From Candidatus Hydrogenedens sp. (GTDB taxonomy: Bacteria; Hydrogenedentota; Hydrogenedentia; Hydrogenedentales; Hydrogenedentaceae): 64,000 bases of DNA. The position numbers and the translations under genes are program-made. Below are positions 4,850 through 44,988 of this stretch, one piece after another (position 1 is the stretch's first letter; the number at the start of each line of letters is the position of its first letter). The stretch is from assembly GCA_049968235.1 (NCBI GenBank), contig JBMFRC010000001.1, positions 30,243 to 94,242 on the forward strand. The letters are read 5' to 3'. The notes under the pieces were generated by a model. That model was not told the origin of the DNA, made no database searches, and saw nothing but the letters and a program-made list of their open reading frames with translations.

Positions 4850-5437
4850 TTATTTTTCTTTTCTTTTTATCATTGAGGTTTTTCTACAGCGGTTCATCCG
4901 ATTTTGCCAATCACCTGTCCAACCTTCCTCGATGGCTTGCTGACATAAAGAGATACATTCTTCATATTGTCCCTGTCGTTCTCGGATATCCGACAAGGTA
5001 TCATATCCCAAATGTGCCGGTAGAGGTATGCCGGGCATTGTTTGTTGGATATGTTCTTTTACTTCTTTTGACAAATCTATTTGTTTTTTTGAGGTAATTA
5101 TTAGCAGTGCTGTCTTCGTATCGTTATCTTTTATATCTTCTTCAATATATCTGGATATTAATTCTTCCAAAGCATAAAAACAGTCCAGGACATCTTCTAC
5201 TTCCATTTCTTCGAGGTCTTTTTCCATCTTTTTTAACAATGAGTCTGATTGTTCTAAATCAGGACGATATGCCAGTTTACTTTTGTTAACAACGATATCT
5301 TCATTTTTCTCTACAGGCTCAATAATTGTTACCATAAAAAGACGCTGGCAGTTAGGGCATAAAACTTTTTGCCCTATGATTGATGTCGGTAATAAAACCT
5401 CTTTAGAACAATAGGGACAGGTAACGATAAATTTCAT
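4850..5437 (-). CDS. Zinc-ribbon protein (CxxC...CxxC N-terminus) of unknown function, translationally coupled to addA
   Basis: CPYCSK...CPNCQ motif at the N-terminus and an acidic helical C-terminal part. The ATG overlaps the addA stop (ATGA). Confidence 0.5.
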   Translation of the reverse strand: MKFIVTCPYCSKEVLLPTSIIGQKVLCPNCQRLFMVTIIEPVEKNEDIVVNKSKLAYRPDLEQSDSLLKKMEKDLEEMEVEDVLDCFYALEELISRYIEEDIKDNDTKTALLIITSKKQIDLSKEVKEHIQQTMPGIPLPAHLGYDTLSDIRERQGQYEECISLCQQAIEEGWTGDWQNRMNRCRKTSMIKRKEK

Positions 5438-8400
5438 TTCTCATAGCCCTGATTTATCTTTGTTATATATTTTTCAATGGCATGATGTATTTCTGTCTCT
5501 AAAACATCACGGACAGAAACCTCTATATCTTTTATATCATATTTTAATTGGTCAATGTATACTATAATTAATTTATTATTGACTTTTATTCCCAGATCTT
5601 TCATTGCATAATAATAAATCTCTAATTGTTTCCAGTATCGTTGAGCATGATTATCAGCATGGGTTCCTGTCTTATAATCAATAATAGTTCCATCGGCAAG
5701 TATTGCATCTACAGTTCCTTGAACAAAATAACCTCCTGTTTTCCAGATAAAAGGGGTTTCCCGCCAGATAGGCGGATTTGCTTTTAAGATAGGATATATA
5801 GGATTGTTTATTATTTTACTAAAACACACATCTTTTTCGTTTTTGATTATATCTTCTAAAATATCCGGGCTAATTATATTCAGAATATATTTTGATAATT
5901 GCTCTATGTTTTCTTCGTAAAAATCCCATAGTTGCAATAACTGATGGTAAAATATACCGCGTTCGGCATGCTCCATACCTAACGATTGTTCATATATTTC
6001 ATCATTATCTTCATCATAAATATCATCAAAAAGGAAATTCAGTATTTGTGTTACTGAAATAGGTTCTGTTTTAAAATGTTGGGGTGTAATCGATATAGGT
6101 GGAACTAAATTATATTGCAAAGACTTTATTTCTCTTTTTAAATCTTTTTTCTTAGGCGAATAATTACTTTCTTCCCTTTCTATAATATAATACAAACCTG
6201 TATCCTTTTTTTTATTAAGGGGAAAGCAACTTGCCAGTAATGATAGGCGGGAATTTATTTTTTGTTTTTTATAAAATTCTTCGAGATATTTTTTATTTGA
6301 AGATAGGATTAAGTAATCGCGGGCACGAGTTAAAGCCACATAAAATAAACGGATATATTCCTGATACTCATCATAGGTATTTTGTAACTTTATAATAGTC
6401 TCCACAATATTATTTTTTTCATCTTCTTTTTTCTTTGTTTTAATAATTACGCCCATTTCTTTATGATAATGAACGGCGGTTGATTTTCTGTGTTGCCTTT
6501 CTTCGTAGAGCAAAGGCAAAACAACGATGGGATATTCCAGACCTTTTGCCTGATGTATTGTGGTTAGAATAACAGCATCTCCTGCTTCTGTTGCAAGGTC
6601 TGCCTCTCCTTCCATTATTTTATCGCGGGAGCGTTCTACAAACCTATGGAACTGGTATAAACTTACGGGATTGCTTTCTTGATAAGCACGGGCTAATGCT
6701 AAAAATTTTTGGAGGTTAGCAATTCGCTGTTCTCCAAACCAATGCCCTAACAAAATGGATTCGTAACCTGTTTGAAGAACAATTTCTTGAATAAGTTCGT
6801 GGATGGGAAGATGCGTTTTTTTCCGGAAATATTGATATAAGTAACGAACTCTTACATAAGCACTGTCTTGTGTCAGAGCATCCGGAATATTATTCGTATT
6901 TAATAACATATTTCGAAGAGGTAAGTTCATCTGCCAGCGAGTAATCTGTTCATCGGAAAGTCCGCAGAAAGGTCCCCGTAAGAAAGAAAGCAGGGCTATA
7001 TCATGATATGGATTTATTAATACCTGAAGGAAATTTAATATGTCTTTTATTTCTGTAATTTCAAAAAATCCCCGACTGCTAACGACAAAACAGGGTATGC
7101 CTCTGTCTTTTAACGCCTTTTCATATTTATAAATGTAATTTTTCGTGCAAAATAATAAAGCGAAATCACCATAACATACAGGGCGTAATTTATGCGTCTT
7201 TTCATCTACAATCATTAAAGGGTTTTCGTTATGAACTAAGGATTGAATACGCTCTGCAATAATTTTAGCCTCAATATCAACATCATCTTCTTTTAATGTT
7301 CTTTTATCATCTTCCGAATGGACAGAAAGTAAAAATTCCACACGAGGTTTAGCATAAGAACTTCGATGTGCTTGCATGGGGATATATGTTTTTTCAACCG
7401 CAGACAGGGAATTTGTTTTCTGGAAAAAGGTATTGACAAAATCTAATACTTCCGGAGCAGACCTAAAATTGTAGTTCAGTGAAAATAGATTATTATCGAC
7501 AACTGATTGTCGCTGTTCTTGAAAAACTTTTACTTCTGCATTTCGAAATGCATAAATGGATTGCTTTGCATCACCTACGAAGAAAAAGGAGAGATTGGGA
7601 TTTGCCGATAACAACAATTGAATTAATTGCACCTGTGTATGGTCTGTATCCTGAAATTCGTCAATGAAAATATACTTTATTCCCTCAGCAATTTCTTTAC
7701 ATACTTGTGTATGTCTATTCAATAAATCATAGGTTAAATGTATCAAATCATCAAAGTCCACCACACCTTGCTGGCGTTTATATTGAACCCATTGACGATA
7801 GAACTGGTCAAATAAACGAAGTATTCTATATGTAAAAGTCAACGCTTTTTGTGTGGTTTCATCTTCCGCTTTTAAGTCAACAATCTCTATTCCTATTGTT
7901 TTTTTTATATCCTCACGAATTTTCTTTAATTGTTCCTGCAATTCACCACATATATTTCTATTCTTTATTATCAATCTTGTTTTATTTCCCAATATTGCTT
8001 CTTTAATTTGAATAATATGTTCCCGTTGTTTCGCAGTTTGCAATTTTCTCAATTCTGAGATATAAAAACTACTGAGAGTCTTCATGTTTTTTTCGTCTTC
8101 CGGAATTTCTTTATACAATTCCTCTAATTGTGTTATCCATCCATTTACCGTTGTTGATTTCACAAAATTTAACAAATATTGCTCATATTTTTCATTTATT
8201 CGTTCAATATTTCTATTGATAGATTCTTCAATAGAACATTGATTTACTTCATCCAGCCATGGAAGGATATGTAGGGAATTTTGAAAAAGTATTTCTATAA
8301 TTTTTTGAAAATTTTGTGGTGAAAGTTCTATAACTAGTTCCGGAACTTCCGTATAATTTTCTACCCACAAATTCATCTGACTTTGAATAAACCTATCGAG

Positions 8401-8853
8401 GAATAGTGGGCTTTGAAGTTCGTCCAGAATACGAAATTCCGGGTCGAAATCTAATTTCAGGGCATATTGCCGAAGTATACCGGCGCAGAAAGCGTGTATG
8501 GTGCATATTCGTGCAGATTCTAATTGTTGTTCGCACCACCTCCATTGGTCTAACTCTTCCGGTGTTGCATTACGGACATATTCATGGAAAGCATCACGCA
8601 GGCGTTGTCTCATTTCTGCAGAAGATTTTTCAGTAAATGTAATTGCTACAATTTCATTTAAATTGGCTTTTCTCTCTTCTAACAATCGTAATATTCTGGC
8701 TATTAAAACACGGGTTTTTCCGGAACCAGCAGAAGCATCAACACCTATTTTTAGTGCATCAGAATAGATAGCCTTTTTTTGTTCCGCTGTTAATTCTGTA
8801 AAGTAACTATGCTGTTTTAGCTTCGCCACTTTCCTCATCTTCCGATATTCCAC
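5434..8853 (-). CDS. addA: ATP-dependent helicase/nuclease subunit A (AddA/RexA-like UvrD-family helicase with C-terminal RecB-type nuclease)
   Basis: Walker A GSGKTRVL near the N-terminus, UvrD/PcrA helicase motifs, and a C-terminal PD-(D/E)xK region (...VDAILADGTIIDYKTG). Confidence 0.8.
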   Translation of the reverse strand: MEYRKMRKVAKLKQHSYFTELTAEQKKAIYSDALKIGVDASAGSGKTRVLIARILRLLEERKANLNEIVAITFTEKSSAEMRQRLRDAFHEYVRNATPEELDQWRWCEQQLESARICTIHAFCAGILRQYALKLDFDPEFRILDELQSPLFLDRFIQSQMNLWVENYTEVPELVIELSPQNFQKIIEILFQNSLHILPWLDEVNQCSIEESINRNIERINEKYEQYLLNFVKSTTVNGWITQLEELYKEIPEDEKNMKTLSSFYISELRKLQTAKQREHIIQIKEAILGNKTRLIIKNRNICGELQEQLKKIREDIKKTIGIEIVDLKAEDETTQKALTFTYRILRLFDQFYRQWVQYKRQQGVVDFDDLIHLTYDLLNRHTQVCKEIAEGIKYIFIDEFQDTDHTQVQLIQLLLSANPNLSFFFVGDAKQSIYAFRNAEVKVFQEQRQSVVDNNLFSLNYNFRSAPEVLDFVNTFFQKTNSLSAVEKTYIPMQAHRSSYAKPRVEFLLSVHSEDDKRTLKEDDVDIEAKIIAERIQSLVHNENPLMIVDEKTHKLRPVCYGDFALLFCTKNYIYKYEKALKDRGIPCFVVSSRGFFEITEIKDILNFLQVLINPYHDIALLSFLRGPFCGLSDEQITRWQMNLPLRNMLLNTNNIPDALTQDSAYVRVRYLYQYFRKKTHLPIHELIQEIVLQTGYESILLGHWFGEQRIANLQKFLALARAYQESNPVSLYQFHRFVERSRDKIMEGEADLATEAGDAVILTTIHQAKGLEYPIVVLPLLYEERQHRKSTAVHYHKEMGVIIKTKKKEDEKNNIVETIIKLQNTYDEYQEYIRLFYVALTRARDYLILSSNKKYLEEFYKKQKINSRLSLLASCFPLNKKKDTGLYYIIEREESNYSPKKKDLKREIKSLQYNLVPPISITPQHFKTEPISVTQILNFLFDDIYDEDNDEIYEQSLGMEHAERGIFYHQLLQLWDFYEENIEQLSKYILNIISPDILEDIIKNEKDVCFSKIINNPIYPILKANPPIWRETPFIWKTGGYFVQGTVDAILADGTIIDYKTGTHADNHAQRYWKQLEIYYYAMKDLGIKVNNKLIIVYIDQLKYDIKDIEVSVRDVLETEIHHAIEKYITKINQGYEK

Positions 8854-11800
8854 TTTGTTCTACTTTCATGTATCGGCATGCAGTCTTGCAGAAGCAATAA
8901 TCACATGATTGCTTTTTGTAAGGGGCAGGGGTAAATTTTCCTTGATGTATATTCCCAATAGTATCTAATATAATTTTTACTGCTATATTCTCTATTTCAT
9001 TTCGCAAATTTTTATCCACTCCCCAGGGTGTACCTGTTTTTTTCTGTTCTGTTATTGATAGAAAATAGGACTCCTCAACGGATAGACCTTCTTTTTGAAA
9101 TAAATGTCTTTCGACAGCAAGTTCGTAAATAATCAGTTGAAAAGAGCAAAATCTTTCCTGCACATTATTAAATTTTATGCCCATATCCGTTTTTGTAGGG
9201 GTATTCCCCCATTTGTAGTCGATGACTCGTAATAATGGGTTACTTACATGTTTATCAATACGGTCAATCCGACCGGAAAACAAAACAGATTTCTTTTGTG
9301 TCTCCATACAATAAGGTTTATGTTGACTTCTTTCATCTTCCGATGGATACATGGTTCTGCCAAAAGCAAGTTCAAAATATGCAGGTTTCCAATCATTATC
9401 AATCAAAGAGGCAGATGAGTTGAGAAATTCGGCAAGCACATGGGTAAGCCATTCTATTGTTAAATCAATCCATTTTTTCGGTAAAACAAACGACTTTCGG
9501 TCTTTAGAAACAATCTCTTGTATTATCTGTTGTAGTTTTTCCTTTATTACCTGGCTTTTATCCCTTAACAGTTCTTCGTAATGGTCTTTTAATAATCGAA
9601 AAAGAGTATCATGTGCCCAGGAACCAATCATCAAAGGAGAAGGGTAGATAAGTTCTTCCTCCCAATCCTGTAAGGCTAATACCCTATGTGTCCAGAAACG
9701 GAAAGGGCACTCTATATACTCTTCAATCTGGTCAACACTGTAAACATGGTCATGCCCAAACTTATTTGTAAGCCATTGTCGTATATCCTCTGCATGTAAA
9801 TTCCCCGTATATATATTTTCATTCTCCTCTTCTCGTTTTTGTAATGAATACCAGCAGTTATAAATATCTGCATAGTGGTGTTTTAATACTTGTTCATCTT
9901 CCTGAATGTAGAAAAGCAGATTCCGTAATTCAGATGGGGAACAGGGAATAAACGGTTTTTTTTCTATTTCCTCCTGTTTTTGTGGGCTATTATGCACAAT
10001 GTATTGACATACCTCCTGACACTCGCGTAATAACAAACTGGAAGAACATTCCCTATGTGTTTCGGAATATAAAGCGTGGGAAAGGAAGACCCCTTTTCGG
10101 GTAGTTTCAAAGATTTGTTGGAAGAACAACCATTCCCTCTGTATTTGTTTTGTAATATCATCGATGGGTAGCCCTGATTGTCGCAGTTTCGTAATATCTT
10201 TATCGGAATATAAAACATTCTGTGTGGGTGTTAAAGGAATCGTTCCTTCTTCAACTCCACCTACAAAAAGATAATCATATTCCATATTTCGTATCATAGG
10301 CAGGTCTAAACACATCACACCACAATTATGTCCCATATCAAAAAAAGATGCATCCGACGATAAAGAGCGAATAAGCCTTTGAAATTCTTCCAGTGAAAGT
10401 TCCTGATTTTTAAGATAATCAGGAAGTTTTTTTATGACTGAAAGGAATTGTAAATAACCTTTTTTCTCTTTTTGCAATTTCCTTTTATTGTCCTCATTTA
10501 ATAAACAATCCTTCAACGCATTTTCCAATGAATGGAAAAGGTCAAGAAGAATAAAAATGTAGTTTGATATTTTGTCCTGCCTTTTAAATTTATTCCGCCA
10601 GAAAAGCCATCGCTTTAGTTCATCATAGAATTGTTGAATATCTACCTTAGAAATATTTTTGTTCTCTATCTCACTAGAATATTCAATGAAATGTTCTTTC
10701 TCCTCTATTTTTTTATTAACATAGTCAAGAGACATACTCATCGAAAGCCCTACTTGCGACAATAGCAAAAAGAATTTTTCACGAATGGATGGAGATATAT
10801 TCCAGAGCGGGTCATGCAATAGTAAAGTTATCGCAGAGAGAGAATTTTCGTTAAGTTGTGCAAACCATCGTTCTAAAAATTGACCGACCCATGTTTCTCT
10901 TAAACCCTGTGACGATAGTATCCGATAAGGAATACCATAATCCATAAATGTCTTCTCGATAAGTGGGCGGACTTTACCTAACTGGCGGTAAACAACGGCT
11001 ATTTTGTGTAGTGGGACATGTTCCTGAACTAATAATTGTTTTATTTTACGTCCGATATTTTTTATCTCCTCTTCCCTATTAATAAATCGTTCTACCTTAA
11101 TTATTGAATCAGTAGAAGGGGTAAATGTTTTAGGCTCATCGCGACCAAAAAGAGTATCCGCAATAAATTCAATAGAGGTTTGAGGTATGGGTGTTTCAAA
11201 ATAAATTGTCTTTGCATCTAATATAGATTGAACCCTTTTTAAGGCATCTTTCGCCAGACGATAAATATCCTGTCTGCCGGGTATCGGGTCGAGATTAATG
11301 CCGATAATGATGTGTTTGAAGTGGGGAGATAACGCATGGATAAGTCGCAGTTCCGATTGGGTAAAATCGTCAAAGCCATCAAATATTAAATATTCCTTTC
11401 CCGCAATATAATCCGGTTTCCCTTTATGGCATTCCAGTTCTGCCTGCCAAAATAATCCTGGAACATCATACCCATTACTTTGCATTAGTTTTTCCTGATA
11501 GGTTGTATATACCCACGATACCACTTCATCCCAGGGTTCTACGGATAATTTTTTTATTTGTTCTTGAAATGCCTCTGGCGTAATTCCTGCCTGTTTTAAG
11601 TTCCGTATGATACGATGGAAAGAATCGGATAAGTTGTCAGGGGCAAGCAATCCCTGATACTGCTCGAACTTTTTTCGTCCCTCTTCCGATAAAATAATAG
11701 ACCTTATTAATAGTGTCTGTTCCCATTCTTCAAGCAAATGGATGGGAATATACTGGGCTTTGAGTAAATTATAGGCAAATTGAGTAAAGTCGGTAACAAT

Positions 11801-11977
11801 ATTTTTTTCTATGGTAGGTTTTGCAATATCATTTAAAAGTTCTATACGCCTTTTCTGAGCATATTGTCGCGTAGGGACAATGAGTAAAGCAGATATATAA
11901 TTTTCTCGTAGAATTTTCTGAGTTTGATTCTTACGGTCAGAGCGTTGACTTCCACATAATATTAAGTTTCGTGTCAT
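8807..11977 (-). CDS. addB: Helicase/nuclease subunit B (AddB/RexB-like) with C-terminal nuclease and Fe-S cysteine cluster
   Basis: 1056 aa immediately upstream of and overlapping addA. C-terminal RIDRIDK...VIDYKWG nuclease motif and CDYCFCKTACRY cysteines. Confidence 0.7.
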   Translation of the reverse strand: MTRNLILCGSQRSDRKNQTQKILRENYISALLIVPTRQYAQKRRIELLNDIAKPTIEKNIVTDFTQFAYNLLKAQYIPIHLLEEWEQTLLIRSIILSEEGRKKFEQYQGLLAPDNLSDSFHRIIRNLKQAGITPEAFQEQIKKLSVEPWDEVVSWVYTTYQEKLMQSNGYDVPGLFWQAELECHKGKPDYIAGKEYLIFDGFDDFTQSELRLIHALSPHFKHIIIGINLDPIPGRQDIYRLAKDALKRVQSILDAKTIYFETPIPQTSIEFIADTLFGRDEPKTFTPSTDSIIKVERFINREEEIKNIGRKIKQLLVQEHVPLHKIAVVYRQLGKVRPLIEKTFMDYGIPYRILSSQGLRETWVGQFLERWFAQLNENSLSAITLLLHDPLWNISPSIREKFFLLLSQVGLSMSMSLDYVNKKIEEKEHFIEYSSEIENKNISKVDIQQFYDELKRWLFWRNKFKRQDKISNYIFILLDLFHSLENALKDCLLNEDNKRKLQKEKKGYLQFLSVIKKLPDYLKNQELSLEEFQRLIRSLSSDASFFDMGHNCGVMCLDLPMIRNMEYDYLFVGGVEEGTIPLTPTQNVLYSDKDITKLRQSGLPIDDITKQIQREWLFFQQIFETTRKGVFLSHALYSETHRECSSSLLLRECQEVCQYIVHNSPQKQEEIEKKPFIPCSPSELRNLLFYIQEDEQVLKHHYADIYNCWYSLQKREEENENIYTGNLHAEDIRQWLTNKFGHDHVYSVDQIEEYIECPFRFWTHRVLALQDWEEELIYPSPLMIGSWAHDTLFRLLKDHYEELLRDKSQVIKEKLQQIIQEIVSKDRKSFVLPKKWIDLTIEWLTHVLAEFLNSSASLIDNDWKPAYFELAFGRTMYPSEDERSQHKPYCMETQKKSVLFSGRIDRIDKHVSNPLLRVIDYKWGNTPTKTDMGIKFNNVQERFCSFQLIIYELAVERHLFQKEGLSVEESYFLSITEQKKTGTPWGVDKNLRNEIENIAVKIILDTIGNIHQGKFTPAPYKKQSCDYCFCKTACRYMKVEQSGISEDEESGEAKTA

Positions 11978-14856: not shown

Positions 14857-15519
14857 ATAAAATACTCCGTAGATTATTGTTAAAAAGATATTTAATTTTA
14901 ACATGTTAAATCTAAAATACCTACGAATATTGTTATCACATTCCTTAATGCATAAACAAAAATAAATACAGGAAACAGTATAAGATATGCTAAATACAGG
15001 AGCAAATTATCTTTGCCCCGAATATAGCACAAGCATTTATTCCTTCTTTTGCAATTATAAGTGGTGCGATTATTTTAATTTATCAGAGTAATACAATTAT
15101 CCTGCTTTTGATAAATTCAATTTATTAATTAGCACCGGCATTTCTCTCTTTGCTTTTTACCACGAATGGTGCGAGATGTAAATAAGCATAAAGTATTTAT
15201 TATAGCAAATGATTATTCGCCATTACATAGAGATGCACTTGCCATGCAGGCGGGTTTTTGGAATGTGTTGGTAAAAATCGTTTCTGTCTGGCAGGACTTT
15301 CAGCAAGACAATGAGATAATTTTCACCACGGAGGACACGGAGGGACACATAGATATTTTTTTCTTATCACAGAAAGCACGGAGAACACAGAGAAGGGAAC
15401 AGAGAATAGGTATGAGTATGGATATATTTATTCTATGATTTATATTCTCCTTTCCTTTTTTCTCTGTGTTTCTCTGTATTCTCTGGGGTGGAGTATTTTT
15501 TTTCTCACCACAGAGAGCA

Positions 15520-15550
15520 CTATCTTTTCTTGTTAATGACTGCATATAAT
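15520..15550 (+). promoter_or_regulatory. Candidate sigma70-type promoter inside repeat copy A (TTGTTA ... TGCATATAAT)
   Basis: A near-consensus -10 (TATAAT preceded by TG two nt upstream) conserved in both repeat copies. The -35 is weak and the spacing suboptimal. Confidence 0.35.
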
Positions 15551-15724
15551 TTGAAGTGGATATATGAGGAATTAAGGGGGCAAAAGGAGAAGTATGCATA
15601 GGTAACCAAAAGATAAAAATACTCACAGAAAATAACAAATAAAATGGGTAAAAGTAGGGATACAGACTTTTGTATTTTAATTTTTCATCGGGATTTTATC
15701 TCATAAAAACATGTATAATTTATA

Positions 15725-15759
15725 CTCTTACCTCTTACCTCTTACCTCTTACCTCTTAC
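15725..15759 (+). repeat. (CTCTTAC)x5 perfect heptanucleotide microsatellite
   Basis: Five perfect tandem copies, present only in repeat copy A, 30 bp before the cas2 stop codon. Confidence 0.95.
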
Positions 15760-15789
15760 AAAAATTGTTCAGAGGTCTCGTGTATTTTT

Positions 15790-16116
15790 TTATACTATAA
15801 TAAGGTTGGGGTTTGAGATGGGTGTATAGTAGTTTAGTCCGTTTCTGTTGATAATTTTGATTTTATTTGCATCAGCATGGCAAAGGGGTATGATATGTAT
15901 AATAAGTTGTCGGTTTTGGTCATTGGGTTGTTCGTTGGAGAGGTAATCACGAATGGTTTCCTGTAGTTTTTCGATAAGGAGTTCTTTTTCATATTCATCG
16001 AGGTCGCCCATGAAAACGGAGAATTGTATGTGCGAAGTTCCTACTTCTTCGAGGAGGTAGGTTATTTTGTTTCGTAGTTTATCGTTTCCTATGTCGAATA
16101 ATAGTAGTGTTTGCAT
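15790..16116 (-). CDS. cas2: CRISPR-associated endoribonuclease Cas2 (apparently intact ORF, unusual G-poor coding strand)
   Basis: 108 aa. MQTLLLFDIGNDKLRNKITYLLEEVGTSHIQFSVF matches the Cas2 N-terminal consensus, including the catalytic Asp in the LFDI motif. Confidence 0.7.
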   Translation of the reverse strand: MQTLLLFDIGNDKLRNKITYLLEEVGTSHIQFSVFMGDLDEYEKELLIEKLQETIRDYLSNEQPNDQNRQLIIHIIPLCHADANKIKIINRNGLNYYTPISNPNLIIV

Positions 16117-16129
16117 AGGTTGATTTGTG

Positions 16130-17098
16130 TTATAGGTTGTATTTATTTTGTTGATTTAGGGTTTGTGTTAGTTTTATGGCTGCGAGCAGGATGTGTTTTT
16201 GGTAGTTGGTATTGGGGTCTTTGGGGGTAGGTTCATAGAGGCGTTCTATGTAAAGGGAGGAGAGTTTTTTTGTGTTTCTTTTTCGAGTAATCCGTTTTTC
16301 TGGAGTTGTACATTTATTCCTTGTCGTATGTAAGCGAGTAAGGGTGTATCGATGAGGGGTTGACGGAAAGGTTCGATAAAGAAGACGAGGGACTGTTTGT
16401 TGTTCTGTAGGGTGTGCAGAAACCCTGCATATGGGTCGAGTCCGGCGAGGGTTAAGGCACGGAAGCATTCGGAGTAGAGGATGCCGTAACCGTAGTTGAG
16501 TGCAGAATTGACGGGGTCTTTCGAATGTCGGTGTGTTCTGTGGGTAAAGTTATAATTGGCTGGGATAAGTTGTTTGAAATATGACCAGTAGATGGATGAG
16601 GCGTGTGCTTCGGTGGACATGATTTGTTGTTTTGCGTGGGATATATTTTCAGTGTTGATGGATTTTAATTTTTCGATGAGTGGGTAAATAGTATTGTGAA
16701 GTGTATCTTCGATTTGGGCTAAGTATGTTTTGTATCGACACAGGAATTAGAATTGGTTTTCGATTTTTGTTTGTATGTATTTTTTTGGCAATTTGTATGC
16801 CTAAGCCGTTCTGGATGGCTGTGTATTGGTTCCATCGGTTCTGGATATGGGGGTGATTGTATATAGGCTGGATAAAAGTGATGGAGTTCCCGTAGGGCTT
16901 ACATACGGTTAAGGCGATGTCTTGCTGGCTTGCGAGTGAAAGTGCTTCAGCGGAGATGGAAAATCCTTGGGTGAAGATGATGATGTGTGAGAGTTTGCTG
17001 GATGGGATTGTTTTAAGGGTTTTGTTTTCGCCGATAATTTTGAACATGTTTTTGTGTCTACCGACACGGATATTCTTTTCAATAAGGATGAGATGCAT
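16130..17098 (-). pseudogene. cas1: cas1 disrupted by at least one frameshift (Cas1 N-terminal half 16649-17098, C-terminal half 16246-16620+, possibly a third frame to 16130)
   Basis: N-half ...IIIFTQGFSISAEALSLASQQDIALTVCKPYG and C-half ...SALNYGYGILYSECFRALTLAGLDPYAGFLH match Cas1 conserved blocks. The two halves sit in different frames and switch near T/A homopolymers at ~16650-16690. RBS GAGGAGGA precedes the ATG at 17098. Confidence 0.7.
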
Positions 17099-17219
17099 GT
17101 TAAAGTCCTCCTCTTCATTATTTTTATTACATCTAACCTTAAAAAGTTGTATTATTTGCTATGTATTTAGTCCCAATCAATTTCGAGTTTGAACCAACCC
17201 ATAGGAAGGGATGCCTTTG

Positions 17220-18401
17220 TTATTTTTTTTGTGATGTAGTTAATTTATGAGACTTTGGATAAGGTATTTGGTCAGAACATCTGTCTCTCTTTGCTTTTCC
17301 CCATTTTTTGTCATTTGTATCTCCTTGTGAAAATAGTAATGTTATAGTTTTTGATAAAGAACCTGTGCCATAACCTAATTGTAAAAATATTTTTTTGCCT
17401 CTTTCTATCCTAATATCTTCAGGGATGTCATATTCATTTTTATTTACAGAATTAAAGAATTCCAGTTGTTTATCAATTAAAATTTCTGAGTATTTGCGTA
17501 AACAATCTTGAAAACTCTGTGTATCGTTAAGAACATTTTTAAGATATTTTATCTATTCTCCGTTATTATATTTATATTCATCCAACATAAATTTTAATGC
17601 TTGTTGGTCTAAATAGAAATCTATAATTATTTCTTTACCTTTAGGAATCAGGCATTCAGCAAATATATCAAATGGTTTAGTTGAAAATTTGTCTCCATTT
17701 TTACTTTTTACTTTTATTTGACATATTCCAAAATTGTCGATAGGAATCTCTTTAGAGTCTCTGATTACTAAAAATTTAAATAAATCATATTTTGCATCAT
17801 AATTCGAATTATCTACTTCTAATGTAGTATATTTTTCTATATTTTTATTAAGGAGAATATTATTAATATTATTTGACTCTTTAATTAAACAATTAGTGAC
17901 TGCATTTCTTATACATCCCTTTATACTTGAACCTGGAATAAAAAATTTCCCAAATGGGTATTTTATAAAGGAAAGGATTGGAGGAAGAGAAGTAGATTCT
18001 TGACATATAGATTTTGACTGAGAATTTTGGGATTGTTTTTTCTCAACTTGTTTCTGTATTTTTCTTAGTTCTGGAGGAAGTGCTGTATGTTTAGGCGATA
18101 TGGACCTTGATTGTTTATTTGTTTTTTCTCCTCTTGTTCCAAAATCAGCATATATAGGAAGAGAATAGCGAATATATTCAGGGTCGGGACGAAAGGAGGG
18201 TTCTTCAATAATCTTTAAATCAGTTTCATAATCTTCGCAATTATCCTGAAAATATTTCATGACATCTTTTAGACAGAATAATAGCTGTTTCTCGTCAATG
18301 TCAATGTAATATTCAAAATTCTGATATTCTTCGCCATCTGATATATGGATGGGAGTGATAGGTGTTAGTTTGAATTTGCCATGTTTCTTTTTATCGTTCA
18401 T
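17220..18401 (-). pseudogene. Csm5/Cmr6-group Cas7 RAMP gene interrupted by an in-frame TAG (plus 17553-17555)
   Basis: N-terminal KLTPITPIHISDGEEY resembles the Csm5 ...PIHIGSGE motif and FIPGSSIKGCIRNA the IPGSS(L/I)KG RAMP motif. After the TAG the same frame continues ~105 codons, including a QLGYGTGSLSKT G-rich loop. Confidence 0.6.
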
Positions 18402-18414
18402 TGTTTTTCTCCTT

Positions 18415-18666
18415 TTAAGGATGTTTGAAATAGATATTGAATGCGAGACCGGAACGCCAGATAGGATGAGGTGATGAGTCGTAACTGATGGCGATTACAT
18501 CCCCCTTAGGCATTTCTTTGATAACAGGGAATTTACTTCCTTCTATACACATACGAACAGATTGTTTGGGTTCATCATACCCGGCAATGCCATGTATCCA
18601 CCCACCTCGCATAGTGCATTCATAAGATGCGATATTGGTGAGAATACCATTTTCAAATTCTTCCAA
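18415..18666 (-). CDS. Hypothetical 83-aa ORF (TTG start); possibly the frameshifted C-terminal continuation of the upstream CARF-like gene
   Basis: A frameshift in the T7 run at 18792-18798 would fuse ...GFGHFTIKK to this frame. No family recognised. Confidence 0.3.
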   Translation of the reverse strand: MEEFENGILTNIASYECTMRGGWIHGIAGYDEPKQSVRMCIEGSKFPVIKEMPKGDVIAISYDSSPHPIWRSGLAFNIYFKHP

Positions 18667-18737
18667 AGTAGGATGATAAAGACTGAGTATTGCGGGACTG
18701 AGTATTGCGGTAGCTTTTGGTGGACTTTCCTGCCCAC

Positions 18738-19353
18738 TTATTTTGAGCGTATCATTTTCTTCAATAATATATTTTGATTCGAAAGGTTCAATTTTTTTAT
18801 AGTAAAATGTCCGAAACCTAAACTGCGTTCACCACCAATACCCAGTTTACCCAAAGCGGATAGAAAATTGACAAATGATTCTTTTTTCTCTTCTTCTAAT
18901 TTAACAAAAAACCACAATCCGACATCTTCTTCGCTATTTATCTCATAAAAATTTTGAGGGTAGGCTGTAGTTTGATTAGTAACCCGGTCAATGACGGTGG
19001 AAATTTTATAATTTTCTTTAACGGTTTTTTTGGAGGGGAAACCTTCTTTATTATTTATCAGGTCATTCATTTCTTCATTCAGGAGAAAAGTTGTTCCTGG
19101 ATTCTCTTCATCACCGTCTAAATAGGGATAATCTTCTTTTTTTTGGGAAAAGTTCTTTTAATATTTGCTGGGTTTCTTCTGCTTTTTGGAATATTGATGA
19201 AGTGGTTAGAAGAATGACATTATCAAAATCACCAATGTTAACAGAAGAAATAATCGGCCCCTATTGTGTTCCACCGGTGGGTGCTTCATCTACTCTCCCG
19301 TAAGGGTCATTTGTTCCTACAAAACTTAACAGTAGAGAAGATTTCCTCCCCAT
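18738..19353 (-). pseudogene. Csm6-like CARF-domain gene (CARF N-terminus; C-terminal R-X5-H / glycine-rich motif), disrupted by in-frame TAG (19261-19263) and frameshift(s)
   Basis: Reconstructed N-terminus MGRKSSLLLSFVGTNDPYG...DNVILLTTS resembles my recollection of Csm6 CARF N-termini (ILFSPIGNTDPW...DRVVLFFTES). Downstream LGKLGIGGERSLGFGHF could be a HEPN Rx4-6H motif or a RAMP G-loop. A frameshift sits at the T8 run 19137-19144. Confidence 0.45.
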
Positions 19354-20508: not shown

Positions 20509-22014
20509 TTAATTAGATTCTTTTTCCCATTCTTCGCGGGAAACAGTTTTTGTTTCAATTTTTGCATTATCCAGAATAAGTTTCACTACTTTCTTCCGAA
20601 GGATAGTATCGGTTACATCATCTCTTCCCTGTTCTTGGATATAATTTCGAATGGTTTCTATATCAATACCTGTTCTTCCCTGTATGCTTTGTGCTTCATT
20701 TTCATAGTCACTATCCGTAATTTTTATTCCTTCTGCTTCGGCTATTTCACTTGCCACAGTATACCATTTAATTGTTTTCTCTGCTTTTTCTTTTGCATCT
20801 TTTTCCAGTTCTTCTCGCTGTTTTTCAATTTCTGACATAGGCATTCGCATCTGTATCATTCGCTGGATTTGTTCCTCTACCTGATTTCTCGCTACTTCTT
20901 CAATGAGAGATTTGGGAATTTCAAAAGTACTACTTGCAATAACCTGTTCAATAGCGGATGTTTCTAATTGATAATCCGTTTCCTCTGATATAGCATTTTC
21001 TATTTCTTTCTTGATTTGTTGTTTTAAGTCTTCAAGATTTTCGGCTCCTGCTTGTTTTGCAAACTCGTCATTTAATTCCGGCAATTCTTTCCTTTTAATG
21101 TCTTTTACTTTAATTTCAAAAGTAGCCTTTTTTCCTGCCAGACTTTTATTTGTATAGTCTTCTGGAAATTCTACCTCACAAGTTTTTGTATCACCGACTT
21201 TGGCACCGATAAGAGCCTCTTCAAATTTACCGAAAAATCTCTTTGAGCCAATAATATAAGGGTAATTGTTAGCACTTCCACCTGGGAAACTTTCCCCATC
21301 TATAGTTCCATTAAAATCAATAATCGCCTGGTCACCATTAGATATTTCTGCATCAGGAACGGACTGGTAAATTGAGAAACGGTTTCTCAAAAGTTCCAGT
21401 CGTTCTTTAATCATACTTTCATCTGGTTCTAGAACTTTGCGTTCTAATTCAAGTCCACGATATTTACCCAGTTCACATCTTGGTGCCACTTCAAAAGTAA
21501 CCTGAAAAGATATATCACTATCTTCCGGTAATTTGTCAAGTTGTTCTAATCCTTCAAATTGTGGTGTCGAAAAAGCCCTTAATTTATTGTCTTCCATTAA
21601 TTTTTTTACAGATTCGGTTATAACCTTATCAAAGGCTTCTTTTCGTGCTATTTTTCCGAACTTATTTTCGACCAGCCACATGGGGGCTTTCCCTTTACGG
21701 AAACCGGGCAATTCTGCATGTTCCTTTACTTCTTCCAGATTTTTATTTATCTGTGATTTAGTATTTACTGCAGGAATAGTAATTTTTACGGAATATAAAC
21801 AGTCCCCTTTGTAATCAATTTCATATTCGGGGTCTTTTTCAAATTTAAATTCTTCCTCCTCTGTATCATGGGCATGGTGATGGTGTTTATGCTCATGTGT
21901 TTTCTCTGTTGGAGATTGTTCCGAAGAATTTTCTGTTACGATTTGAGATTCTTCTGTCGGTTCCAATTCAGAGGTTTTTGTGTTTTCTTCGTTGTTGTTT
22001 TTTTGTTCTGTCAT
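20509..22014 (-). CDS. tig: Trigger factor with ~80-aa acidic, His-rich N-terminal extension
   Basis: GFRKGKAP signature and the PPIase/C-terminal architecture. Lies upstream of clpP as in many bacteria. Confidence 0.85.
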
Positions 22015-41981: not shown

Positions 41982-42374
41982 AGAATTTTTTTATATATGA
42001 GGCCTCTGAATAAAACATATACGATAAATAGTATATGAAAGTTTATATACAGGAAGGATAAGGGAAAAAATGAAACGAAAGATGTATATATTTCACAAAA
42101 GGAATAGGTTAATTACACAGTAAAGAAAAAGTTAAATGGAGAAAGGTAAATGTGCGGTACAATGAAAGAGGTAAAGCAGATGAGGTTTTTAGATTATGCA
42201 GTATCAAAACAGAAACCGACATGATGAGAGAAATAATTGAAAGTGATGCCAGAGATAACCCTGTGGGAGAAATTGAAATGTAGATGAGTAGAGGGGAGTG
42301 TATAAATAAAACTGGGGATAGCGAAGGAGGTTTGTCCTTACTATTTTATGCATTGTTAACCAGTGAGTGATGAT

Positions 42375-42690
42375 TTCTTTTTGTTCTCTGTGGTTGATTA
42401 TGTTTTTTACATTACGGAGAACACGGAGAGGCTCAGAAAGAGGAGTATATCATTTCTTGTTAATGATTGCATATAATTTGAAGCGGATGTATGGGGAATT
42501 AAGGGAGCAAAAGGAGAGTTATGCATAGATAATAAAAAAATAAAAGAACTGACAGAAAATAATAACCGAAATGGGTAAAGGTAGAAATACAGACTCTTGT
42601 ATTTTAATTTCGTATGGGAATTTTATCTCATAAATAATTTATAATTTATACCCTAACCTTTTGCACGAATTGTTCAGAGGTCTCAAATAT
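42375..42690 (+). repeat. Intergenic repeated element, copy B (paralogue of 15375-15785)
   Basis: Shares the promoter-like CTTGTTAATGATTGCATATAAT, the mini-ORF AAGGAG-N5-ATGCATAGATAA and the terminal GAATTGTTCAGAGGTCTC. It abuts the stop of the 764-aa gene. Confidence 0.7.
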
Positions 42691-42693
42691 TGT

Positions 42694-44988
42694 TCAGGTA
42701 CTTGCATACTGGCGCAATTCTTGTAAAATTGTGGAAAGGCGTTCTGATGTTTTTTCGATATAAGGGAGAAATCTTTTTCCTTTTCCTTCACGAACCCCCA
42801 TACGATATTCCGTAAATTCACCTGCTAATTTTAAGACCTCTTCTTTATATTTATCCACAATAGTATTTTTTCCCTCACTTAATAAACGACACAAGACACC
42901 ATCACAGGCACATAAAATAGCCCCAACCTCAAAAAGTTTCCCCCGTACTTTATATATATCTTCTATTGTATAAAGGGTATTCGTTACTTGATTTTTTATT
43001 TCTACCATTTTTTGTAAGGTATTCATGGATTGTTTTTCTTTTAATTCTCTTATCCTATCTATTATTTTTTCTACCGATGGTAAATAGGGTTTAAGTAGTT
43101 CAACATTAATTGAAATTTGTTGCTCAATATAATCAAAAATTCGATACATAATTATCTCTCCCCAACGCTGGCATTCTTCGGGAGTAGCAATAAGAATAAT
43201 TTGTCCCTGTCCGGGAAACATTTCGCGATGGAAAGAGGGAGGTAGTTCTTCCCACTGGTAAGAACGGACAAATTGAGTAGCGTCGTATGCACGATATTGT
43301 TCCGGTAAAGCGGAACGGAAATTAATATTAACCCCTGTTACTTCTGATGTGTCTTGATTTACAAGATAAAACAACCAGAAATTTTCTCCTTTCATCCATG
43401 TATGAATTAAAATATCAACATTATCGGGACATCTTGAACGAGGATGTTTCCGTGATTGGATATCCGGTGAAAAATCAGGAGGATTTGTAGGTTTTGCTGT
43501 CATCACTAACGAGGCAAGAGAGTAGAAGCATCCTAACCTCCCTCCTAATTCCTGCCAGACATCACTGAAAGTCAGGAAAGGTCCTGTTAAAGAACGCTGA
43601 CATTCACCTCCTGACCATAGCGGTATATTATGGTATGTATAACTTAGCCATCCGCGGACACCGCTGGATATTGCCAAATTGACCATAAGTCGTATTTCTG
43701 GCGCAGAATTCCAAATAGGGGCGCCGGAACCAAAAACAAATGCGGGACCAATTGCCCATAAATGTTGCCCATTAACAAATTTTATATGGGTTTTAAGGAC
43801 ATGTCCTAATTCCCATGGAGTTTTTGATTTCCAATGACTTATCCCGGAAATTGAAGAAAAGGGAGCGTATACGGGGAAGGCATTGGCTTCTCGTGTAAGG
43901 TAAATGACAGGATGTTTTTCATCTATCTGTTCAATTTTCTTTTTGATTTGTATATAAGCATCTACTTCCGAATCGGAGGGATTTTCTTTGATTACCCATC
44001 CGAACAAATTATCTTCGGTAGAATATCTTTTAATAGAATGCTCTTTTTCTTTGATAAATGATGCTGTCTTTGTAGGTTCCAGGAGTACGGTTTCTTCTTC
44101 TAAAGAAATGATTAATTTAATATTGTGTTTTTTAGAGGTTTCAAAGAGTACTTCCTGGTCTCCTGGCAGGAATTCATAAAATCTTTCTACAAAGGCAACA
44201 TTATGATAATGTAGAGACATATCTTCAAATAATAAATCCAGATAAGAAGATAGGTCTATTTTCATAAGATGGGACATATTTCGGGCTGTATTAGCATTGA
44301 TATAGGTTCCTATCGGAAAGAAATTATCCAGGACAGGATAATGAATCGGTTTTTCATTGGCGGATGGTAAAATATCTTTTTTGTTGAGCAGGTTTCTTTC
44401 TCTTTCCGTAGGTTCTCGAAAGCGTATACTGCGAATATACATTGTCTCTTTTGTTCTTGTAAATGAATATAAGCGGAGAGCAAAGTTTTCCATCTTTCTC
44501 GGGAAACTATTGAAACACCATGCCCTTGCTACTGTAATCCATTTAAAATCCATATCGAGGAATTCAAAAAATTGACCTGTTGTATAGTGCCATGTCCATG
44601 CGGGAAGACATTTACCATATTGCATACGATAGGATATTTCAACAATGGGGTGTTTGTTCTGTGCTATAGGGAAATGGGGAACAGAACTTGTTCGAGTGCT
44701 TAATGGAACCCAGTAACTGGGTCTTTCCATGTCTTTTAAAAAATTTAATCTGCGTAATCCAGTAAAATCACCCGTCCATCGTAGAACTTTTTCTCCATCT
44801 ATTTCATCTATCATCTTTCGGGCAGGGATATCTTTCCACTCCTGTTCTCCCGGGTCATCTTCCTGGGACCATTTCATCAAATCTTCTGCATAAAATGTAA
44901 TATTTGAACATCTCTCCCGTTCTTCTAAAGTTGGCGGTTCTTTGATTTTGTTTAGAAGTCCTTTGTAAATATAATATTCGTTTTCCAT
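42694..44988 (-). CDS. Hypothetical 764-aa protein (possible glycoside-hydrolase-like; co-oriented with sugar ABC transporter genes)
   Basis: Long ORF with no recognised motifs. A hydrolase role is suggested only by context. Confidence 0.4.
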   Translation of the reverse strand: MENEYYIYKGLLNKIKEPPTLEERERCSNITFYAEDLMKWSQEDDPGEQEWKDIPARKMIDEIDGEKVLRWTGDFTGLRRLNFLKDMERPSYWVPLSTRTSSVPHFPIAQNKHPIVEISYRMQYGKCLPAWTWHYTTGQFFEFLDMDFKWITVARAWCFNSFPRKMENFALRLYSFTRTKETMYIRSIRFREPTERERNLLNKKDILPSANEKPIHYPVLDNFFPIGTYINANTARNMSHLMKIDLSSYLDLLFEDMSLHYHNVAFVERFYEFLPGDQEVLFETSKKHNIKLIISLEEETVLLEPTKTASFIKEKEHSIKRYSTEDNLFGWVIKENPSDSEVDAYIQIKKKIEQIDEKHPVIYLTREANAFPVYAPFSSISGISHWKSKTPWELGHVLKTHIKFVNGQHLWAIGPAFVFGSGAPIWNSAPEIRLMVNLAISSGVRGWLSYTYHNIPLWSGGECQRSLTGPFLTFSDVWQELGGRLGCFYSLASLVMTAKPTNPPDFSPDIQSRKHPRSRCPDNVDILIHTWMKGENFWLFYLVNQDTSEVTGVNINFRSALPEQYRAYDATQFVRSYQWEELPPSFHREMFPGQGQIILIATPEECQRWGEIIMYRIFDYIEQQISINVELLKPYLPSVEKIIDRIRELKEKQSMNTLQKMVEIKNQVTNTLYTIEDIYKVRGKLFEVGAILCACDGVLCRLLSEGKNTIVDKYKEEVLKLAGEFTEYRMGVREGKGKRFLPYIEKTSERLSTILQELRQYAST

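What the first reader, a model, noticed from the sequence alone, without database searches (positions are those of the whole stretch)
15790..19353. Array-less, Cas10-less CRISPR-Cas relic: cas2 - cas1(fs) - Csm5-like RAMP(TAG) - Csm6-like CARF gene(TAG+fs)
Four co-oriented minus-strand genes encode recognisable Cas2, Cas1, a Csm5/Cmr6-group Cas7 (PIHISDGE and IPGSSIKG motifs) and a protein with a Csm6-type CARF N-terminus. That CARF gene also carries a G-rich or R-X5-H motif near its end. There is no Cas10, no Csm2/3/4, no Cas6 and no repeat-spacer array on either side. Only a (CTCTTAC)5 microsatellite and a 250-bp repeated element lie downstream of cas2. Every effector gene is interrupted. 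The locus looks like a type III system caught in decay. If the interruptions are sequencing errors, it would instead be an unusually minimal Cas1-Cas2 + Cas7 + CARF module, an architecture I do not recognise as a described subtype. It is inserted between a heptose-biosynthesis operon and the tig-clpP region.
Basis: partly seen in the sequence, partly recalled or inferred. Interest (0 to 1): 0.6.

Follow-up and report, generated by a model that had tools for sequence, protein, structure and literature searches.

The report
Decayed type III-A CRISPR-Cas remnant
This stretch is the dead remnant of an ordinary type III-A CRISPR-Cas immune system in a Candidatus Hydrogenedens bacterium: a single 6-kb deletion and about nine smaller lesions have disabled it, so it is a pseudogene cluster and not a new minimal system.

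Summary
One gene call is wrong.

- **Confirmed genes:** cas2 is an intact ORF. cas1 has two frameshifts and has lost a conserved metal-binding Asp codon. csm5 has an in-frame TAG and a frameshift.
- **The "Csm6-like CARF gene" is a deletion scar.** It joins the first ~75 codons of an RtcR-like CARF/sigma-54 activator to codons ~148-381 of csm4. The "G-rich / R-X5-H motif" is the Csm4 glycine-rich loop, not HEPN.
- **Intact relatives:** related Hydrogenedens metagenome contigs carry, at the same tig-clpP-CoA_binding site, rtcR-like, cas10, csm2, csm3, csm4, csm5, cas1 and cas2. One ~6.0-kb deletion at a short direct repeat accounts for everything missing from the effector operon.
- **No array:** no CRISPR repeat or leader survives in the 64 kb. 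A 270-bp repeated element abuts the cas2 stop codon.
- **Not sequencing error:** two independent MAG contigs (99.96% and 99.5% identical) carry the same junction, both TAGs and most frameshifts.
- **Not recoding:** TAG ends four other long ORFs in the window.
- **Side lead, outside the window:** intact relatives have a conserved sigma-54 promoter upstream of cas10.

Ordinary; low interest.

The parts
19139..19353 (-). 5' stub (~75 codons) of an RtcR-like CARF / sigma-54 activator gene; in-frame TAG at 19261-19263 where L008 has TAT (Tyr)
   Evidence: tblastn: L008 RtcR-like residues 3-74, 74% identity, E 1.4e-28. DNA alignment. Weak CARF profile hits: PADLOC CARF_HEPN 2.3e-4, RtcR_PspF2 8.8e-3. 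The full-length relative has Pfam RtcR + Sigma54_activat + HTH_8 and PADLOC RtcR_PspF2--CARF_AAA_HTH 1.5e-114.
19137..19146 (-). Deletion junction, inside an A8 run: rtcR codon ~76 joined out of frame to csm4 codon ~148; about 6,039 bp missing relative to L008
   Evidence: Alignments of both sides to L008. L008 carries CCGGA(C)AAAAAG at 846-857 and CCGGAAAAG at 6888-6896, so there is microhomology at both breakpoints.
18415..19138 (-). csm4 3' fragment (residues ~148-381 of 384); 1-bp deletion beside the A7 run 18792-18798; 15-bp in-frame tandem duplication at 18681-18710
   Evidence: TIGR01903 Csm4 97.4 bits (cutoff 55), model positions 110-302 of 304. Pfam Csm4_C 1e-10. tblastn to L008 Csm4, 68-72% identity. 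Lesions. Duplication found by TRF; it is absent from L015.
17167..18401 (-). csm5 pseudogene: in-frame TAG at 17553-17555 and a frameshift (+2 relative to L008) at the A8 run 17223-17230
   Evidence: TIGR01899 Csm5 2.2e-24; PADLOC Csm5 4.7e-29. 58% identity to L008 Csm5 over residues 1-406, with the last 20 residues in another frame.
16130..17098 (-). cas1 pseudogene: +1 in the A7 run 16780-16786 (A6 in L015); 3-bp deletion at 16382/16381 that removes a conserved Asp codon (SLVFDFIEPFR becomes SLVF-FIEPFR); -1 at the A-run 16265-16271
   Evidence: Pfam Cas1 1.4e-53 on the frame-corrected sequence. Three tblastn segments in three frames. DNA alignment. The gap falls opposite the Asp of the D-L-x-E motif in solved Cas1 structures 4n06, 6opm and 7cr6.
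15790..16116 (-). cas2, the only uninterrupted ORF (108 aa); amino-acid change is about twice as fast as in intact relatives
   Evidence: Pfam CRISPR_Cas2 5.5e-10; PADLOC Cas2b 2.3e-13. 76% identity to L008 Cas2. dN to L010 is 0.165, against 0.096 for L008-L010.
15521..15789 (.). ~270-bp repeated element abutting the cas2 stop codon, where relatives have a leader-like sequence; contains the (CTCTTAC)5 microsatellite at 15725-15759
   Evidence: Second copy at 42448-42694, about 85% identical. No similarity to the post-cas2 tails of relatives. The microsatellite has 6 copies in L015.

Best explanation
This is a non-functional relic of a canonical type III-A (Csm) CRISPR-Cas locus in a Candidatus Hydrogenedens genome.

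**Ancestral state.** The operon was rtcR-like (CARF + sigma-54 AAA+ + HTH), cas10 (HD + GGDD), csm2, csm3, csm4, csm5, cas1, cas2, probably followed by a leader and array. It sat immediately downstream of tig-clpP-CoA_binding.

**Main lesion.** One ~6.0-kb deletion between short direct repeats (CCGGA..AAAAG) removed four things:
- the AAA+ and HTH parts of the regulator;
- the sigma-54 promoter upstream of cas10;
- cas10, csm2 and csm3;
- the first ~147 codons of csm4.

**Smaller lesions.**
- Poly-A slippage frameshifts in csm4, csm5 and cas1 (two in cas1).
- Two nonsense TAGs.
- A 3-bp deletion of a conserved Cas1 Asp codon.
- A 15-bp duplication in csm4.

**Downstream.** The leader and array are gone, and a 270-bp repeated element now abuts cas2.

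**Shown:** gene identities, the junction, the lesions, their presence in independent assemblies, and intact syntenic relatives.

**Inferred:** the order of events, the microhomology mechanism, and that an array once followed cas2 in this lineage.
For: **Gene identities**
- Profile hits to Cas2, Cas1, Csm5 and Csm4, above curated cutoffs where these exist.
- tblastn maps L008 RtcR residues 3-74 to 19353-19138 and L008 Csm4 residues 147-381 to 19139-18409. Cas10, Csm2 and Csm3 hit nothing in the 64 kb.

**Intact relatives**
- Intact operons follow CoA_binding in L006/L003 and L008; L002 has the regulator there before its contig ends. L010 and L013 carry the same operon architecture.
- The L008 proteins pass the NCBIfam type III-A cutoffs.

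**Lesions**
- Junction and microhomology.
- Lesion map.
- The lost Cas1 Asp aligns to the conserved D of solved Cas1 structures.

**Against sequencing error**
- L014 (GCA_049971155.1) is 99.96% identical with no gaps. L015 (GCA_049969095.1) is 99.5% identical.
- Both share the junction, both TAGs and the csm4 and csm5 frameshifts; L015, which alone reaches that far, also shares the 3-bp deletion and the second cas1 frameshift.
- L015 differs only in the first cas1 A-run, the 15-bp duplication, the microsatellite copy number and 3 SNPs.
- 40 homopolymer runs lie inside 31 other intact long ORFs without any frameshift. In the relic, 5 of 7 runs coincide with a lesion. My hypergeometric calculation from those counts gives about 1e-5.

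**Against recoding**
- TAG terminates four other long ORFs in the window.

**Relaxed constraint**
- Cas1 dN from the window to L010 is 0.121, against 0.059 for L008-L010.
- Cas2 is 0.165 against 0.096.

**Recurrent decay**
- L011 carries csm4-csm5 followed by a truncated, frameshifted cas1 remnant.
Against: - Only 64 kb of the genome is visible. A functional CRISPR-Cas system or an array elsewhere cannot be excluded.
- cas2 is still an intact ORF.
- dS between the window and its relatives is saturated (0.6 to above 3), so the dN/dS figures are only indicative.
- The closest intact relative is a different species (CoA-binding-protein gene dS about 1.3). The ancestral breakpoint sequence, and therefore the microhomology, is inferred and not observed.
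- That an array followed cas2 in relatives rests on sequence shared with one array-bearing contig (L016), not on a contiguous assembly.
Confidence: 0.93

Rival explanations
1. A functional, unusually minimal Cas1-Cas2 + Cas7 + CARF module whose interruptions are sequencing or assembly errors.
For: All five frameshift or junction sites lie in A7-A8 homopolymers, which is where sequencing errors concentrate.
Against: - The same lesions occur in two independent MAG assemblies, one of them a distinguishable genotype.
- 40 comparable homopolymers inside other ORFs are unaffected.
- The TAGs and the 3-bp Asp deletion are not homopolymer errors.
- The 'CARF gene' is a junction between codon ~76 of a regulator and codon ~148 of csm4.
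- Relatives show the full type III-A operon at this site.
Confidence: 0.02
2. The genes are expressed through recoding: TAG read as a sense codon and programmed or transcriptional slippage at poly-A tracts. Csm5, Cas1 and Cas2 would then still be made and would work with a type III effector encoded elsewhere.
For: - Both premature stops are TAG, and every frameshift is at an A-run.
- Transcriptional slippage rescuing poly-A frameshifts is known in reduced genomes (my own knowledge, not checked here).
Against: - TAG ends four other long ORFs in the window.
- Cas1 lacks a conserved metal-binding Asp whatever the frame.
- csm4 lacks its first ~147 codons.
- A-run lengths are polymorphic between strains, as expected for neutral slippage.
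- dN is elevated in cas1 and cas2.
Confidence: 0.03
3. Only cas2 survives as a functional gene, co-opted for example as a stand-alone nuclease or toxin-like protein. The rest is junk.
For: cas2 is the only uninterrupted ORF. It keeps the N-terminal FDI Asp and is 76% identical to an intact relative's Cas2.
Against: - Its amino-acid divergence is roughly doubled relative to intact lineages: dN 0.145-0.178 against 0.065-0.096.
- A 327-nt ORF can stay open by chance.
- It has no recognisable ribosome-binding site in the 25 nt upstream, and its upstream partner cas1 is broken.
Confidence: 0.05

Closest known systems
Type III-A (Csm) CRISPR-Cas, cas10/csm1-csm2-csm3-csm4-csm5 with cas1-cas2
   Same: - The surviving genes match the Csm4, Csm5, Cas1 and Cas2 profiles.
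- Syntenic relatives have the full set, with HD and GGDD motifs in Cas10.
   Different: - In the window cas10, csm2, csm3 and the 5' third of csm4 are deleted.
- csm4, csm5 and cas1 are disrupted.
- There is no array.
- It is a pseudogene cluster, not a working member.
RtcR/PspF-like CARF-AAA+-HTH sigma-54 activators placed at the 5' end of defence operons (Makarova 2014, PMC4012209; Bell 2024, PMC11090510)
   Same: - The 5' stub is 74% identical to the N-terminus of such a regulator.
- The full-length relative matches PADLOC RtcR_PspF2--CARF_AAA_HTH at 1.5e-114 and carries a GAFTGA motif.
- More distant homologues (37-39% identity) head type I R-M and defence islands in 3 of 3 contexts sampled.
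   Different: - Here, and in Hydrogenedentes relatives, the regulator heads a type III-A operon, not R-M, CoCoNuT or rtcBA.
- It scores below the NCBIfam cutoff for true RtcR (306 against 650 bits).
- In the window only ~75 codons remain.
Csm6/Csx1 CARF-HEPN ancillary RNases
   Same: The N-terminal strand-1 motif (LLSFVGTNDP) gives weak CARF hits: TIGR02672 E 0.053; PADLOC Csx1/Csm6 1e-3.
   Different: - There is no HEPN domain.
- The supposed R-X5-H lies in the Csm4 glycine-rich loop.
- The CARF stub belongs to the RtcR-like family.

Membership tests
Type III-A CRISPR-Cas (functional locus) | Signature gene cas10/csm1 present | tested here: not met
   tblastn with Cas10 from L008, L010 and L006 finds nothing in the 64-kb window. 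The gene falls inside the ~6.0-kb deletion.
Type III-A CRISPR-Cas (functional locus) | csm2 small subunit and csm3 (Cas7 backbone) present | tested here: not met
   No tblastn hit for either protein from three relatives.
Type III-A CRISPR-Cas (functional locus) | Intact csm4 (Cas5 group) | tested here: not met
   Only residues ~148-381 remain, with a frameshift. The homology itself is clear: TIGR01903 97.4 bits.
Type III-A CRISPR-Cas (functional locus) | Intact csm5 | tested here: not met
   The Csm5 profile is matched above cutoff, but the frame has an internal TAG and a frameshift.
Type III-A CRISPR-Cas (functional locus) | Adjacent CRISPR repeat-spacer array | tested here: not met
   - No array by TRF or the repeat finder in the 64 kb.
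- The relatives' 37-nt repeat has no match with 12 or fewer mismatches in the window; the best two have 13 and 14.
- The rest of the genome is not visible.
Cas1 integrase (active) | Continuous reading frame with the conserved acidic and His metal-binding residues | tested here: not met
   There are two frameshifts, and the Asp of the ...SL(x)xD(L/F)xE... motif is deleted. The gap lies opposite D in 4n06, 6opm and 7cr6.
Cas2 | Cas2 fold/profile match and an open frame | tested here: met
   Pfam 39.7 bits (cutoff 23.8). TIGR01573 35.9 bits (cutoff 24.5). 108-aa ORF. Function was not tested.
Csm6/Csx1 CARF-HEPN | C-terminal HEPN domain with a catalytic R-X4-6-H | tested here: not met
   The sequence downstream of the CARF stub is Csm4. 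No HEPN hit in Pfam, NCBIfam or PADLOC.
RtcR-like CARF-bEBP regulator | CARF N-domain plus sigma-54 AAA+ (GAFTGA) plus HTH | tested here: not met
   Only the first ~75 codons of the CARF domain survive. The AAA+ and HTH parts are present in relatives and deleted here.

The most novel reading that the evidence does not exclude
The stub at 19139-19353 marks a little-described arrangement that survives intact in Hydrogenedentes relatives.
- A type III-A operon has no Csm6/Csx1-type CARF nuclease within the locus.
- Its only CARF protein is an RtcR/PspF-like sigma-54 enhancer-binding protein.
- That regulator sits directly upstream of a conserved -24/-12 sigma-54 promoter in front of cas10.

If the CARF domain senses Cas10-made cyclic oligoadenylate, or RNA ends generated during infection, this would be a signal-induced transcriptional feed-forward loop controlling a CRISPR effector operon. 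None of it operates in the window itself.
Probability: 0.3. Interest if true: 0.55.

Novelty: new member of a known kind. Interest (0 to 1): 0.2.

Why it matters
For the window itself it matters little. It is a clear, datable example of CRISPR-Cas loss by one microhomology deletion followed by poly-A slippage, at a variable site downstream of tig-clpP in an uncultured phylum. It also warns that 'minimal' cas architectures read from raw sequence can be deletion scars.

The comparison turned up something more useful outside the window. Hydrogenedentes type III-A operons are headed by an RtcR-like CARF/sigma-54 activator with a conserved sigma-54 promoter. That gives a testable model for CARF-mediated transcriptional control of a type III system.

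Tried and rejected
- **Putative first repeat.** I guessed that the shared last 36 nt of contigs L008 and L009 (GTATTTAATGTAACATTCGAGGACTTGCACCCGAAC) was the first CRISPR repeat. A metagenome scan showed it is unique sequence that continues identically in L016 and L017. The real array in L016 has a different 37-nt repeat about 0.7 kb further on. Neither sequence occurs in the window.
- **Exact-sequence look-up of the window Cas2.** Not on record. The 282-aa Csm5 fragment and the CoA-binding protein did retrieve two MAG contigs.
- **Homologue search with the CARF domain alone** of the L008 regulator returned nothing. The full-length query worked.
- **Rfam.** On the whole window it finds only a tRNA. 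On the post-cas2 region it finds only sub-threshold miRNA-like hairpin hits.
- **TAG recoding.** Rejected because TAG ends four other long ORFs.
- **Hypermutation as the cause of the G-poor cas1-cas2 coding strand.** Rejected because intact relatives share that composition.
- **The CARF-classification paper (Makarova 2020)** is not held in the library.
Full report
**1. What is in the window**

The minus strand between 15790 and 19353 carries a string of short ORFs in shifting frames. I joined the frames by eye and scanned the pieces against Pfam, NCBIfam and PADLOC.

| Piece | Coordinates | Result |
|---|---|---|
| Cas2 | 15790-16116 | Intact 108-aa ORF; Pfam 5.5e-10 |
| Cas1 | 16130-17098 | Pfam 1.4e-53; TIGR00287 1.4e-52 |
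| Csm5 | 17167-18401 | TIGR01899 86.6 bits (cutoff 38.3); PADLOC Csm5 4.7e-29 |
| Csm4 fragment | 18415-19138 | TIGR01903 97.4 bits (cutoff 55), model positions 110-302 of 304; Pfam Csm4_C 1e-10 |
| CARF stub | 19139-19353 | Weak hits only: PADLOC CARF_HEPN 2.3e-4, Csm6 TIGR02672 E 0.053 |

- The fourth piece is the surprise. It is not CARF/HEPN at all.
- The 'G-rich / R-X5-H' motif (GIGGERSLGFGH) is the Csm4 RAMP glycine-rich loop.
- Only the first ~70 residues of that 'gene' give any CARF signal.

**2. Organism and intact relatives**

- The adjacent trigger factor is 90% identical to that of Candidatus Hydrogenedens terephthalaticus. It retrieves four other Hydrogenedens-type MAG contigs with the same dxs-tRNA-tig-clpP-CoA_binding synteny.
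- A homologue search with Csm5 gave 11 proteins, the best at 59% identity.
- Their contigs L008, L010, L006 (the same contig as L003), L007 and L013 all show one architecture:
  - a ~505-aa protein with Pfam RtcR + Sigma54_activat + HTH_8;
  - then cas10 (HD, Csm1_B, palm), csm2, csm3, csm4 and csm5; cas1 and cas2 follow in L006, L007, L008 and L010, while the L013 contig ends after csm5.
- In L006/L003 and L008 the operon directly follows the CoA_binding gene, which is the same chromosomal site as in the window. L002 has the regulator at that site before its contig ends.
- L001 and L004 have no cas genes at that site. The site is therefore variably occupied within the genus.
- The L008 proteins pass the NCBIfam cutoffs for type III-A Cas10/Csm1, Csm2, Csm3, Csm4 and Csm5.
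- Cas10 keeps its GGDD motif in all four relatives checked, and its HD motif in L008, L010 and L006 but not L013.

**3. The deletion**

- tblastn of the relatives' proteins against the whole window maps:
  - L008 RtcR-like residues 3-74 to 19353-19138 (74% identity);
  - L008 Csm4 residues 147-381 to 19139-18409 (68-72% identity).
- Cas10, Csm2 and Csm3 hit nothing in the 64 kb.
- DNA alignments of each side place the junction in the A8 run at 19137-19144.
- In L008 the two breakpoints carry CCGGACAAAAAAG (ending at 857) and CCGGAAAAG (ending at 6896). A deletion of about 6,039 bp between short direct repeats explains the join.
- The microhomology mechanism is an inference, because L008 is not the direct ancestor.
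- The deletion removed the AAA+ and HTH parts of the regulator, the rtcR-cas10 intergenic region, cas10, csm2, csm3 and the first ~147 codons of csm4.
- The join is out of frame.

**4. The smaller lesions**

| Gene | Lesion | Position |
|---|---|---|
| rtcR stub | TAT to TAG | 19261-19263 |
| csm4 | 1-bp loss beside the A7 run | run 18792-18798 |
| csm4 | 15-bp tandem duplication (also seen by TRF) | 18681-18710 |
| csm5 | In-frame TAG | 17553-17555 |
| csm5 | +2 shift at the A8 run | 17223-17230 |
| cas1 | +1 in the A7 run | 16780-16786 |
| cas1 | 3-bp deletion | 16382/16381 |
| cas1 | -1 at the A-run | 16265-16271 |

The 3-bp deletion in cas1 turns SLVFDFIEPFR into SLVF-FIEPFR. In alignments to solved Cas1 structures (4n06, 6opm, 7cr6) the gap falls exactly opposite the conserved Asp of the D-L-x-E metal-binding motif. 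Cas1 would therefore be crippled even if its frames were restored.

**5. Real lesions or errors?**

- The 282-aa Csm5 fragment and the CoA-binding protein are each found, as exact sequences, on two NCBI MAG contigs.
- L014 (GCA_049971155.1) is 99.96% identical to the window over 4,814 bp, with no gaps.
- L015 (GCA_049969095.1) is 99.5% identical over 4,771 bp.
- Both carry the junction, both TAGs and the csm4 and csm5 frameshifts. L015, which alone reaches that far, also carries the 3-bp deletion and the second cas1 frameshift.
- L015 differs in four ways:
  - A6 instead of A7 at 16780-16786, so the first cas1 frameshift is absent;
  - no 15-bp duplication;
  - six instead of five CTCTTAC units;
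  - three SNPs.
- These differences show a distinct genotype and ongoing slippage.
- Within the window, 40 homopolymer runs (A/T of 7 or more, C/G of 6 or more) sit inside 31 other intact long ORFs without any disruption. In the relic, 5 of 7 runs coincide with a lesion. My hypergeometric estimate from those counts is about 1e-5.
- TAG ends four other long ORFs, so it is an ordinary stop codon here.

**6. Relaxed constraint**

- By csm4 and csm5 the window is closest to L008. Yet its Cas1 and Cas2 are more diverged from every intact relative than those relatives are from each other.
  - Cas1 dN is 0.121-0.127, against 0.053-0.065 among intact pairs.
  - Cas2 dN is 0.145-0.178, against 0.065-0.096.
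- dS is saturated, so I treat this only as support.
- It also suggests that the still-open cas2 is drifting.
- A separate contig (L011) carries csm4-csm5 followed by a truncated, frameshifted cas1 remnant. Decay of this locus is therefore recurrent in the lineage.

**7. No array**

- TRF and the repeat finder see no repeat-spacer array anywhere in the 64 kb.
- In relatives the contigs stop 110-240 bp after cas2.
- The post-cas2 tails of L017/L008 and of L006 share sequence with contig L016. That sequence leads, about 0.4-0.7 kb further on, into an array of 37-nt repeats, CTTTAACTCTTTGCCCTGCTGAAAAAGGGATAGAAAC.
- The window has no copy of this repeat with 12 or fewer mismatches, and no copy of the leader-like sequence.
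- Instead, a ~270-bp element (15521-15789) begins right at the cas2 stop codon. Its second copy (42448-42694, about 85% identity) likewise abuts the stop of an unrelated gene.
- Whether an array exists elsewhere in this genome cannot be told from the window.

**8. The regulator family (side lead)**

- The full-length relative matches PADLOC RtcR_PspF2--CARF_AAA_HTH end to end (1.5e-114).
- It stays below the NCBIfam cutoff for true RtcR: 306 against 650 bits.
- It carries GAFTGA-type motifs.
- In the four distinct rtcR-cas10 intergenic sequences examined (L007 duplicates L006), a sigma-54 -24/-12 element lies 20-50 bp upstream of cas10: TGGCAT/C-N5-TTGC, with the last position degenerate in L006 and L013.
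- More distant homologues (37-39% identity) head type I R-M and defence islands in 3 of 3 contexts sampled. That fits published descriptions of RtcR-like CARF regulators at the 5' end of R-M and CoCoNuT superoperons (PMC4012209; PMC11090510).
- Makarova 2014 lists the RtcR-like family among the CARF families not typically found near cas genes.
- E. coli RtcR was tested with oligoadenylates and these are reported not to be its signal (PMC9650030).
- No paper among the 10 top-ranked results of the library search combined sigma-54 or bEBP with cas10.
- The pairing with type III-A in Hydrogenedentes therefore looks under-described. It lies outside the window, and its function is inferred only.

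**9. Verdict**

- The interpretation, type III in decay, is supported. The 'minimal module' alternative is refuted.
- The feature is a pseudogenised type III-A locus, an ordinary kind of object.
- Interest is low for the window and moderate for the regulatory lead in relatives.

Noticed in passing
L008:632-2313, L010:3014-4692, L006:3091-4769, L013:3026-4787 (relatives; deleted in the window between 19138 and 19139): Intact Hydrogenedentes type III-A operons are headed by an RtcR/PspF-like CARF + sigma-54 AAA+ (GAFTGA) + HTH regulator. A conserved -24/-12 sigma-54 promoter (TGGCAY-N5-TTGC) lies 20-50 bp upstream of cas10. No Csm6/Csx1-type CARF nuclease is encoded within these loci. More distant homologues of the regulator head type I R-M and defence islands instead (L018-L023).
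   Followed up: partly
window 15790-17098 (also cas1-cas2 of L008, L010, L006): cas1 and cas2 use C-ending codons to an extreme degree and almost avoid G at third positions. C3 is 0.45 and 0.36 against a window median of 0.13; G3 is 0.04-0.06. This gives a GC skew of +0.5 on the plus strand. Intact relatives share the bias and the csm genes do not, so the adaptation module has its own compositional history. The cause is unexplained.
   Followed up: partly
window 15521-15789 and 42448-42694: A ~270-bp element repeated at about 85% identity. Each copy abuts the stop codon of a minus-strand gene and ends in TTGTTCAGAGGTCTC. The second copy sits in a ~710-bp spacer bounded by a 21-nt inverted repeat (41993-42013 / 42670-42690). 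The orthologous FGGY / 766-aa gene junction in relative L011 is only 47 bp long. It may be a MITE-like insertion. There is no Rfam match.
   Followed up: partly
window 15725-15759: The (CTCTTAC)5 microsatellite is present only in the cas2-side copy of the repeated element. Its copy number is polymorphic: six units in MAG contig L015.
   Followed up: yes
window 15360-15494: A long imperfect hairpin rich in CACAGAGAA / CTCTGTG motifs (arms 15381-15410 and 15454-15483). It gives sub-threshold miRNA-precursor-like Rfam hits on both strands. A similar 28-nt motif occurs in the pre-array region of contig L016. It may be a small dispersed palindromic element.
   Followed up: no
L011:1-2700: A JGI contig from a related organism carries csm4-csm5 followed by a truncated, frameshifted cas1 remnant (residues 7-164) and then unrelated genes. 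This is an independent decay of the same locus type.
   Followed up: partly
window 20509-22014: Trigger factor has an N-terminal extension of about 60 residues, acidic and His-rich (…[16 protein letters not shown]…). The relatives' tblastn matches to it start at residue 1 in four of five contigs.
   Followed up: no
window 5434-11977: Two large minus-strand ORFs downstream of the sugar-metabolism genes. The 1056-aa ORF has AddB_N and PD-(D/E)XK domains, so it looks like an AddAB-type helicase-nuclease, not a defence gene.
   Followed up: no
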